A DNA stretch of 62,456 bases, counting the filler, from Kipferlia bialata (taxonomy: Eukaryota): the NCBI GenBank assembly GCA_003568945.1. It is 4 parts of 3 records of this genome, joined end to end, with 100 filler letters (N's around TTAATTAATTAA, not from the genome) between each part and the next. Parts side by side here need not be neighbours in the genome. Positions count along the whole stretch, not along the records: positions 21,482 to 38,218 come from BDIP01000085.1; 3 more parts are not named here. The stretch is one strand, 5' to 3'. The notes under the pieces are model-generated. The model had not been told where the DNA came from and ran no database searches. It was given only the letters and a program-made list of their open reading frames with translations. The stretch's first letter is position 1, and every line of letters starts with the position of its first letter. The position numbers and the translations under genes are program-made. Positions 26,819-28,530 of this stretch are shown here, one piece after another.

Positions 26819-28530
26819 CTACTCCATGTCAATTGAGAAACTTTCCCACACCAGATGGGTCACTCCCTCACTAGCCCACTTGGCCCTCAGGATACGCTCC
26901 TGCTCAGGAGTCCCAGAGCACCTGATCCTGGTGATCTCTGCACAGCGTGCCCTGTTGGCAGCCTCCCACCCAGGCCTGGCCTCCTCTGCTCTCAACCTCT
27001 CCCTCCGTAACTCCTGGATTGAGATGTGCTCCTCAGAGGACTCCTCGGTAGATGGAGTAGCACTGAGACGGAGTGTGTGTGGGAGCTCCATAGCCAGGAG
27101 AGGGGAGGCCCGCCTTGGGAGCGATGCCAGTGGTGATGTCCCAGTGTTTGCCTGGTGTTGTGTGGAGGTATAGAACGATGTAGCATATTCATCTAAAACC
27201 AGATGTCACTATACCTGGGAGAGAGGGAGAGCTCCAATACCAGATGCCGTCACAGGCCCTGATGGGGTGGCACCTGTGGCCTTGGAGGCCATGTCCTTGA
27301 CAAGGGTGGGGCCGAGGGTCGGGTCCATGTACACAAGGTTGCCAATCACCTCAGCAACACCCTTGGCACAAGCGTTGTCATGCTTCTCACCGGCCTGCAG
27401 GATGCCCTTGTAGCTCTGAAGGGCACGCTGGGCAGTGGTGTGCTCCCTGTGTGAGAGCAGTATGAGAATCTCATTGAGATTGATATCATCATGATATGGT
27501 GTATCCCATATATACTGTTGTCTCCATTATGTCAGACTCCCCACGAACGAAAGTATCCATAACACTTACTTGATGTGGCCTCCGTGCTCGACGATGTCAG
27601 CGATCCTCTTGTCTCTCCTCTCGTCCAGTGCTCTGTTGCCCTTCTGGCTCTTGATGCGGAGGTTGGAGTTGTCGTTGAGTGCCCGGCAGAAGGCCTCAGT
27701 CTCCGCAGTAGTCTGGGGCCCCTTCCGGGTCTTGCAAAGGACAGCTCTGGCTACACGGTGGGAGCACTTGTGGGCAGCCTCTGTTCCCTTGCCCCTGTCG
27801 CCGTGCTTGGTGAAGCCTAGAGTGAGGTGTACCAGAATACAATCGCCATATTGGCATACGGAATGCGTTGGACTCAGTACTACTGTATATTGAGAGAGGT
27901 GTGCGTACCCTTGTTGCAGATGGGGTCCTGCCTGGTGGTGTCGAGGTACTTGATCTCGGCTGGCTTGACGTACTCCTTGCGCCCACTTGCAGTCTCATAG
28001 TACTGACCCCCCTTCGGGCCAGTCTTGAGCTCGGCAGGGGCACGCCTGGCAAAGGTGAGCTCGGTCTTGGTGGCAGAGTTCTTGGTGGCGGGCTTAGTGG
28101 GCTTGGCAGGCTTGACAGGCTTGGAGGGCTTGGAGGGCTTAGTAGCTACCTCAGTGGCTGGCTTGGTGGCGGGTCTCGCTCTGGGAGCAGGGGCAGGGAC
28201 AGGGGCAGAGGGTGCGGACCGGGATGATGCGGCAGATGGAGTCACATACACCTTGCTCCCAGAGGCTGAGTGGTAGTACTGTCCCCCCCTAGACCCCTGG
28301 TGGATCTCTGCAGGTGCCCGCCTAGCAAAGGTCTGGGTGCGGACCACAGGGTCTGAGCGGGTAGGTGCAGTAGGCGTAGACCTAGGGGCGCTGCGTGAAG
28401 GGGCAGAGTAGGAGGATGAACCGCCGGAATAGGAGGAGGAGGAACCAGAGTGGGAACTGCACCGGCCGTTATGTGCCCCACCCCTGGAGTCAATCGTGAT
28501 AACAGCAAGGGTATATACCATGGTATCCAC
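26819..28530 (-). CDS. Basic protein with two PBCV-type basic adaptor motifs and an HNH-like nuclease domain (5' end uncertain)
   Basis: GSRGGQYYHSASGSKVYV (28243-28297) and GPKGGQYYETASGRKEYV (27967-28020). Exon 27570-27816 encodes EAAHKCS...LNDNSNLRIKSQKGNR. Three in-phase introns lead to TAG at 26819. Confidence 0.7.

What the first reader, a model, noticed from the sequence alone, without database searches (positions are those of the whole stretch)
26819..28530. Intron-containing gene combining two giant-virus-type basic adaptor motifs, a K/P/A-rich linker and an HNH-like nuclease domain
Seen: two copies of TFARRAPAE(I/L)xxG(S/P)(R/K)GGQYYxxASGxKxYV separated by a histone-H1-like K/P/A/T linker. 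These are followed by EAAHKCSHRVA...ALNDNSNLRIKSQKGNRALD. Established: GPRGG.Y....G.K.YV is the core of the PBCV-specific basic adaptor domain (PF08789, described from chloroviruses). A His followed later by N-L and a further Asn is the HNH (beta-beta-alpha-metal) pattern. Inference: a domesticated virus- or bacteria-derived DNA-binding nuclease, possibly a defence or toxin effector or a chromatin protein, that has gained spliceosomal introns. The ORF track hides the nuclease exon.
Basis: partly seen in the sequence, partly recalled or inferred. Interest (0 to 1): 0.75.

Follow-up and report, generated by a model that had tools for sequence, protein, structure and literature searches.

The report
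Unnamed protist nuclease with DNA-gripping hairpins
A gene of the free-living protist Kipferlia bialata joins two small basic hairpin motifs first described in algal viruses to a conserved domain of no named family, found mainly in microbial eukaryotes and predicted to be a metal-dependent (HNH-type) enzyme that likely cuts DNA, possibly in defence.

Summary
The minus strand encodes two PF08789 hairpins (above Pfam's cut-off), a K/P/A/T-rich linker and a conserved 155-residue domain. This is KIPB_000690 of Kipferlia bialata. The domain spans three exons, not one. The domain has 70 relatives and no Pfam family. H220 is invariant; N256, N265, D269 and D273 are nearly so. They sit on a confident predicted strand-loop-strand-helix core as in His-Me finger nucleases, nearest the GH-E and DUF1524 groups. 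Searches of solved structures gave no significant match. Giant-virus origin is not supported: traced relatives are metamonads, an amoeba, ciliates, other eukaryotic contigs and one spirochaete, none viral, and the hairpin also occurs in bacteria. In the one RNA run holding the gene, the only spliced joints over it are antisense. Verdict: a real, apparently unclassified, protist-centred His-Me finger family with swappable basic modules; activity and role untested.

The parts
28639..28676 (-).
   Evidence: Best match to the paralogue's first 14 residues among 124,824 six-frame positions of the window (score 54, next best 31); the intron 28638-28484 has GT..AG ends and keeps the frame
27909..28483 (-). 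Exon 2: S/G-rich segment, adaptor 1, linker, adaptor 2 and start of the nuclease-like domain
   Evidence: identical to the database protein P0001 over this part
28240..28332 (-). PF08789 basic adaptor hairpin, copy 1
   Evidence: Pfam above cut-off; two predicted strands at residues 81-84 and 90-93; coordinates
28057..28236 (-). K/P/A/T/S-rich low-complexity linker (12 K+R, 2 D+E in 60 aa)
   Evidence: low pLDDT, about 50-57
27967..28056 (-). PF08789 basic adaptor hairpin, copy 2
27570..27816 (-). Exon 3: predicted His-Me finger core with E217 (27781-27779), H220 (27772-27770), N256 (27664-27662), N265 (27637-27635), D269 (27625-27623), D273 (27613-27611)
   Evidence: Conservation, predicted structure, coordinates
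27209..27446 (-). Exon 4: C-terminal helices and hairpin of the conserved domain; ends at the stop 27211-27209 (database model) or at a donor site after 27215
   Evidence: The homologous region of the family continues through this exon: R294 60 of 63, G322 51 of 59; alignment with the paralogue
26819..27151 (-).
   Evidence: In frame after a GT..AG intron 27214-27152, GC3 0.65; no Pfam or PHROG match, no similarity to the paralogue's tail
26853..28764 (+). Spliced antisense RNA over the gene, with plus-strand introns 27168-27243 and 28511-28694
   Evidence: Two GT..AG joints in plus orientation in contigs of run X2, absent from DNA run X1 (ends checked); longest ATG frame 106 aa. The pieces are separate contigs, so one continuous transcript is inferred

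Best explanation
This gene encodes two PF08789 basic hairpins and a lysine/proline-rich linker in front of a 155-residue domain of an unnamed, mostly protist family that is predicted to be a His-Me finger (beta-beta-alpha-metal) nuclease and would likely cut DNA inside the cell with little sequence preference. Inferred mechanism, by analogy with the superfamily: H220 at the end of strand 1 activates water; N265 in the first turn of the long helix, with D269 and D273, holds one divalent metal at the scissile phosphate; N256 braces the loop; K208, R258 and K260 contact the backbone. The hairpins and basic linker would tether the enzyme to DNA. The most likely role (inferred, about even odds) is a conflict effector against foreign DNA, kept low in expression; the spliced antisense RNA may contribute to that. 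Shown: sequence, domain order, conservation, antisense splicing. Predicted: fold, exon joins. Untested: activity, substrate, role.
For: H220 68 of 68, N256 67 of 69, N265 68 of 69, D269 66 of 68, D273 66 of 68, K260 68 of 69, R258 66 of 69 among 70 relatives. The domain model has mean pLDDT 95.5 and pTM 0.89, with strand 1 ending at the His, a two-helix loop, strand 2 right after N256 and a 21-residue helix with N265 at its fourth position. This matches the defining layout in PMC5714182 (section 12 and passages), including polar residues at +4 and +8. The Atlas's nearest named clusters are DUF1524/GmrSD_C and GH-E by features (0.88-0.92) and GmrSD_C by structure, TM 0.48-0.49. A spacing pattern drawn up after seeing the data fits 61 of 70 family members, 6 of 6 GH-E-like and 10 of 25 GmrSD_C domains, but 1 of 172 background windows. 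Profile comparison with the GH-E-like set gives E 0.011 over 56 columns, similar to two known His-Me groups against each other (E 0.009) and better than negative controls (E 0.3-0.96). Four His-Me nucleases (EXOG, NucA, EndoG, Serratia) appear in the top 31 of 48,161 chains, each aligning 102-106 residues across the domain. For a conflict role: patchy spread on the tree, four named Trichomonas loci at 94-97% identity, changing accessory modules (adaptor in 5, KxDGxxDxR-type motif in 5, ubiquitin in 4 of 71), and a bacterial copy beside a STAND NTPase, a nucleotidyltransferase and DUF433/DUF5615 genes.
Against: No significant structural match: Foldseek has 0 hits at E 0.001 in PDB and BFVD, and the His-Me rows (Z 2.8-3.2, rmsd 4.9-5.6) rank below unrelated helical proteins and within noise. 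No HNH-clan Pfam family hits any of 56 members. Profile comparisons with GmrSD_C, HNH_2 and Endonuclease_NS sets are not significant, and the GH-E one has probability 3.9% on a six-sequence set that includes weak, DUF1524-like members. Atlas structural scores are under the tool's bar for naming a family. The residue before the His is A/G/S, not the common D/E/H ligand. Most eukaryotic relatives sit as single genes among housekeeping genes, with kept synteny in one pair, which fits a housekeeping role as well. No PADLOC model matches the window's domain. No sense-spliced RNA was seen for this copy.
Confidence: 0.62

Rival explanations
1. The same predicted nuclease fold serves a housekeeping job (chromatin handling, DNA repair or programmed cell death), with the hairpins and H1-like linker acting as a chromatin anchor.
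For: Basic K/P/A/T linker. PF08789-bearing kinases are among DNA-associated PBCV-1 virion proteins (PMC3281028, one passage). Eukaryotic relatives lie among housekeeping genes with kept synteny in L007/L008.
Against: The family is small (60 representatives among 1.84 billion), scattered on the tree with the three metamonad lineages apart, and most members lack the adaptor (5 of 71 carry the motif).
Confidence: 0.2
2. A gene captured from a giant virus and domesticated in the Kipferlia lineage.
For: PF08789 is named after a chlorovirus. Two short BFVD matches of 38-40 columns, probably the hairpin, have probability 0.93-1.00 but E 0.15-0.57. Most of the 70 relatives are unnamed metagenomic proteins whose origin was not traced.
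Against: No relative of the nuclease domain in viral contigs, phages or BFVD. Of 15 metagenomic loci, none of the longer ones examined showed viral hallmark genes. The hairpin also occurs in spirochaete lysine-rich proteins and a look-alike sits in a viral portal-like protein.
Confidence: 0.08
3. The domain is not a His-Me finger but another fold or chemistry that happens to conserve H, N, N, D, D.
For: No significant fold match and no family hit.
Against: Order, spacing and secondary-structure positions of five conserved residues fit the superfamily, and the Atlas returns His-Me clusters as the nearest named ones.
Confidence: 0.12
4. This copy is a silenced or decaying duplicate, and the paralogue KIPB_000375 is the working gene (compatible with the best explanation for the family).
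For: RNA contigs over this gene keep predicted intron sequence and show only antisense splicing. A record in the same run carries sequence that by my reading translates to the paralogue (loose end at 27747).
Against: The frame is intact across all exons, all conserved residues are kept, GC3 is 0.68-0.79 in the adaptor and domain exons, and there is one RNA run of low depth in one condition.
Confidence: 0.15

Closest known systems
GH-E toxin nuclease domain (PF14410; His-Me finger group 14 of PMC5714182)
   Same: D-x-x-H, a loop of two helices, then N-x8-N with the same spacing; Atlas neighbour.
   Different: A/S/G rather than G before the His, D at +4 and +8 in a much longer helix, an upstream K-x-G motif and a 60-residue C-terminal extension; no Pfam hit; mostly eukaryotic, whereas group 14 lists 0 eukaryotic members; not on a polymorphic-toxin scaffold.
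GmrSD C-terminal HNH domain / DUF1524 (PF07510; group 3)
   Same: Nearest named structures in the Atlas, TM 0.48-0.49 over about 115 residues; 10 of 25 share the spacing pattern.
   Different: Profile comparison not significant; no GmrS partner domain; no D before the His; the N-x8-N-x3-D-x3-D tail is in 58 of 70 family members and 0 of 25 GmrSD_C.
Sugar-non-specific nucleases (EndoG, EXOG, NucA, Serratia nuclease; group 5)
   Same: D-x-x-H with a small residue before the His; weak whole-domain structural alignments, Z 2.8-3.2.
   Different: No large beta-sheet scaffold in the model; profile E 0.99.
HNH_2 / CR-HNH eukaryotic effectors (PF13391; groups 6 and 38)
   Same: The AAH motif. Ubiquitin-like N-terminal fusions recall Crinkler-type headers (recalled, not from a call).
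   Different: 0 of 8 bacterial HNH_2 domains fit the spacing pattern; no zinc-binding cysteines conserved; no Pfam hit. CR-HNH sequences themselves were not compared.
PBCV-specific basic adaptor domain (PF08789)
   Same: Member: passes the curated cut-off.
   Different: Fused here to a nuclease-like domain rather than to the kinases named in PMC3281028; the same pairing, in reverse order, occurs in Carpediemonas (E 0.0016, below cut-off).

Membership tests
PF08789 PBCV basic adaptor | Score above Pfam gathering cut-off | tested here: met
   24.9 bits against 20.4, two stretches
PF08789 PBCV basic adaptor | Nucleic-acid binding by the hairpin | not testable with these tools
   Only indirect: kinases bearing it are DNA-associated virion proteins (PMC3281028 passage)
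His-Me finger superfamily | Near-invariant His at the C-terminal end of strand 1 | tested here: met
   H220 68 of 68; last residue of predicted strand 216-220
His-Me finger superfamily | Asn in the loop joining the two strands | tested here: met
   N256 67 of 69, just before predicted strand 257-261
His-Me finger superfamily | Asn/His in the first turn of the core helix | tested here: met
   N265 68 of 69 in predicted helix 262-282
His-Me finger superfamily | Further polar ligand at +4 or +8 in the helix | tested here: met
   D269 66 of 68 and D273 66 of 68; definition from PMC5714182 section 12
His-Me finger superfamily | D/E/H directly before the His (described as frequent, not universal) | tested here: not met
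   Position -1 is A 58, S 8, G 2 of 68; D/H/E/N stands at -3 in 65 of 68
His-Me finger superfamily | Structural superposition on a solved beta-beta-alpha-metal core | tested here: inconclusive
   Foldseek none; four His-Me nucleases at Z 2.8-3.2, within noise; Atlas TM 0.48-0.49 to GmrSD_C models
His-Me finger superfamily | Metal-dependent, His-dependent nuclease activity | not testable with these tools
   Needs an assay
GH-E (PF14410) | Pfam match and GH...E motif | tested here: not met
   0 of 56 members hit at E 0.01; A/S/G-H and D, not E
GH-E (PF14410) | H...N-x8-N spacing with helical loop | tested here: met
   pattern drawn up after seeing the data
GmrSD_C / DUF1524 (PF07510) | Pfam or profile match; association with GmrS | tested here: not met
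HNH_2 (PF13391) | Pfam or profile match | tested here: not met
   (E 0.083, 9 columns)
CR-HNH Crinkler effectors | Sequence similarity to CR-HNH members | not tested
   No CR-HNH sequences were fetched
Gene of giant-virus origin | Closest relatives in Nucleocytoviricota | tested here: inconclusive
   None found, but the scans rest on short exact patterns and most relatives are unnamed

The most novel reading that the evidence does not exclude
An unrecognised, protist-centred group of His-Me finger nucleases acts as a cell-autonomous weapon against viral or ingested DNA, retargeted by swapping small basic modules shared with viruses and bacteria (PF08789 hairpins, KxDGxxDxR-type repeats, ubiquitin fusions), and in Kipferlia it is held silent by a spliced antisense RNA until needed.
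Probability: 0.2. Interest if true: 0.72.

Novelty: new variant of a known kind. Interest (0 to 1): 0.43.

Why it matters
If active, this adds an unclassified group to the His-Me finger superfamily, with a distinct A-H...N...N-x3-D-x3-D site and a mainly eukaryotic spread that includes Trichomonas vaginalis, where at least four near-identical copies are annotated only as hypothetical. It gives PF08789, whose function is little studied, a testable context beside a nuclease in two fornicates. Innate nucleic-acid defence in metamonads and other protists is poorly charted (own knowledge), and a small soluble domain with one obvious catalytic residue is easy to assay.

Tried and rejected
No match for the domain by sequence in PDB, PHROGs, Pfam, PADLOC or NCBIfam (three of 50 members hit a glycosylase model weakly, E 0.0037, not followed). 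Foldseek gave nothing significant on the full-length or domain model. The second-look structural alignment against Foldseek's top PDB chains never ran because the machine stayed busy. No whole genome is held, so paralogues could not be counted beyond the two found. No RNA holder was listed as such; runs X3 and X4 laid no contigs, which is no evidence on expression. A search for longer fused forms found only the paralogue (weak evidence) and one with adaptor 1 found only this protein. The adaptor found no phage record. The test of one Kipferlia-Carpediemonas clade did not finish, so no donor or order of events is claimed. P0038 is a repeat protein that the family profile does not hit and was dropped; 8 fragments under 110 aa were left out of the tree (62 of 70 rows). 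An intron right after the database ATG (28518-28484) was considered and rejected because it gives an early stop; the upstream exon explains that acceptor. Literature: no paper for 'PBCV-specific basic adaptor', PF08789 or the six locus tags; one paper for 'basic adaptor'; one search gave nothing relevant. The Trichomonas accessions were not found in the supplement of PMC5714182, but it is held cut at 300,085 characters, so inclusion in that classification is not excluded. Three look-ups of earlier findings returned nothing.

Full report
What is there. The region is eukaryotic, intron-rich DNA. On the minus strand an open frame holds two 31-residue repeats (28332-28240 and 28056-27967, 21 identical residues) around a 60-residue linker that is 70% K/P/A/T. 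Pfam matches the repeats to PF08789 above its cut-off (24.9 against 20.4 bits). The EAAH...NL...GN..LD segment lies in the next exon, 27816-27570, in another frame. A search with that exon returned a 365-aa database protein identical to it, named as KIPB_000690 of Kipferlia bialata, and a paralogue, KIPB_000375.

Gene model. The database protein joins 28521-27909, 27816-27570 and 27446-27209. Both joins are backed by homology, because the conserved domain runs across them. Its first 11 residues do not match the paralogue, but a short frame starting at 28676 does: it is the best of 124,824 six-frame positions in the window (score 54, next 31), and a GT..AG intron 28638-28484 joins it in frame. 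It has no homology support, though (109 of 200 shuffles score as high), and stays unverified.

RNA. One run, X2, holds the gene at low depth. Over the gene it shows two joints, both GT..AG on the plus strand (27168-27243 and 28511-28694; 28 and 71 letters on the shorter side) and absent from DNA run X1. Its contigs keep sequence of the predicted minus-strand introns. The neighbouring plus-strand gene shows two joints of the same orientation, a check on how orientation is reported. So the spliced RNA seen is antisense, covers the gene and its start, and has no ATG frame over 106 aa. It may be a separate non-coding RNA or read-through from the upstream gene; no contig bridges 26554-26853. One run of contigs cannot show that the gene is silent.

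The family. With the core exon, 60 of 1.84 billion representatives scored E 0.001 or better; a profile search added 11. The family profile hits 70 of these 71. None of 56 aligned members has a Pfam nuclease family. Thirty were looked up: named sources are Kipferlia (2), Carpediemonas membranifera, Trichomonas vaginalis (four named loci, 94-97% identical), the amoeba Gocevia fonbrunei and a Leptospiraceae genome; the rest carry no organism. Of 15 metagenomic loci, the longer ones are eukaryotic by gene content; three (two of them identical over 6,729 bases) read in the ciliate code and end in G4T4 telomere repeats. The bacterial copy lies in a 1.16-Mb contig beside a STAND NTPase, a nucleotidyltransferase and DUF433/DUF5615 genes and was the only match in 401 genomes of its phylum. 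No viral, phage or plasmid copy was found, with the caveat that the contig scans need short exact patterns. In a tree of 62 rows the Kipferlia pair is sister (100/100), the Trichomonas-like row lies across a 99/97 branch from it, Carpediemonas is a long branch of unsure place, and the bacterial copy nests with two unnamed rows. This shows scatter, not a donor.

Accessory modules vary. Of 71 proteins, 5 carry the adaptor motif, 5 a KxDGxxDxR-type motif, 4 an N-terminal ubiquitin and 1 a YVSGY repeat; most are the bare domain. Carpediemonas has domain and adaptor in reverse order. PF08789 is not virus-specific: it passes cut-off in 3 of 201 spirochaete genomes, in two cases at the end of lysine-rich proteins, and a look-alike sits in a viral portal-like protein.

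Fold. The domain model is confident (pLDDT 95.5, pTM 0.89): strand ending at H220, two helices, strand after N256, long helix with N265 in its first turn and D269 and D273 at +4 and +8. These residues are 68/68, 67/69, 68/69, 66/68 and 66/68 conserved, and this is the layout that defines His-Me fingers in PMC5714182. The Atlas's nearest named clusters are DUF1524/GmrSD_C and GH-E (one source of evidence); its top hit is an unnamed eukaryotic cluster of 57 members, TM 0.67, perhaps this family or a sister. A spacing pattern made after the fact fits 61 of 70 members, 6 of 6 GH-E-like, 10 of 25 GmrSD_C, 0 of 8 HNH_2 and 0 of 7 Endonuclease_NS domains, and 1 of 172 background windows. Against this, Foldseek finds nothing significant; in the wide structural search the best Z is 4.5 to an unrelated protein and four His-Me nucleases score only 2.8-3.2; profile comparisons are weak (best E 0.011, probability 3.9%). 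I put the His-Me fold at about 0.85 and an active nuclease at about 0.7.

How it likely works. By analogy with the superfamily, H220 is the general base, N265 with D269/D273 holds one divalent metal, and conserved K208, R258 and K260 bind the backbone; the domain has a median net charge of +6. The hairpins and basic linker would add affinity for DNA. The N-terminus is hydrophilic with no visible signal peptide (read from the sequence, no predictor run), so action would be inside the cell. Scatter, local expansion, module swapping and the bacterial neighbourhood lean towards a conflict role, while placement among housekeeping genes allows a cellular one. All of this paragraph is inference.

Comparison and novelty. 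It works like a His-Me finger nuclease nearest GH-E and DUF1524 but fails membership of each named group tested. No paper naming the genes or this pairing was found; subscription papers are outside the library, and the supplement of PMC5714182 was seen only in cut form. Papers seen: PMC5714182 (abstract, passages, sections 12, 13, 17, search of the cut supplement), PMC3281028 (one passage), PMC5874029 and PMC6679479 (passages).

Noticed in passing
window 28511-28518: GTATATAC is a palindrome that serves as the plus-strand donor of the antisense intron and sits right after the database model's ATG on the minus strand.
   Followed up: partly
window 27230: Both DNA run X1 and run X2 read T where the window has A; on the minus strand the change is synonymous, probably an assembly error or allele.
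   Followed up: yes
window 29457-29978 (+): Kelch-repeat exon downstream (Kelch_1 E 2.4e-8); nearly no RNA contig cover in X2.
   Followed up: partly
window 25500-26655 (+): Upstream spliced gene, long coiled-coil-like exons and an acidic tail; two introns confirmed by RNA joints; last exon has no Pfam match.
   Followed up: no
P0002 (KIPB_000375): The paralogue has two N-terminal repeats of a W-x-P-x-x-H-G-G...G-G-x-P-D-x-R-C motif and a tail labelled SH3 by its source; Pfam did not report SH3 at E 0.05.
   Followed up: partly
L014:2913-8447: Ciliate chromosome end where the family gene lies beside a 929-aa coiled-coil protein with a C-terminal hydrophobic stretch and a 760-aa frame with two zinc-knuckle-like motifs, none with a Pfam match; a long inverted repeat at 1315-1782. 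Could be a mobile element.
   Followed up: partly
L003, L004, L005, L010: The domain is fused behind a canonical-looking ubiquitin ending in LRLRGG, which would allow release by deubiquitinases.
   Followed up: no
L064:1135-1602 and L065:1090-1581: Spirochaete lysine/glutamate-rich proteins that end in one PF08789 hairpin; the L065 protein has a hydrophobic N-terminal stretch like a signal peptide.
   Followed up: no
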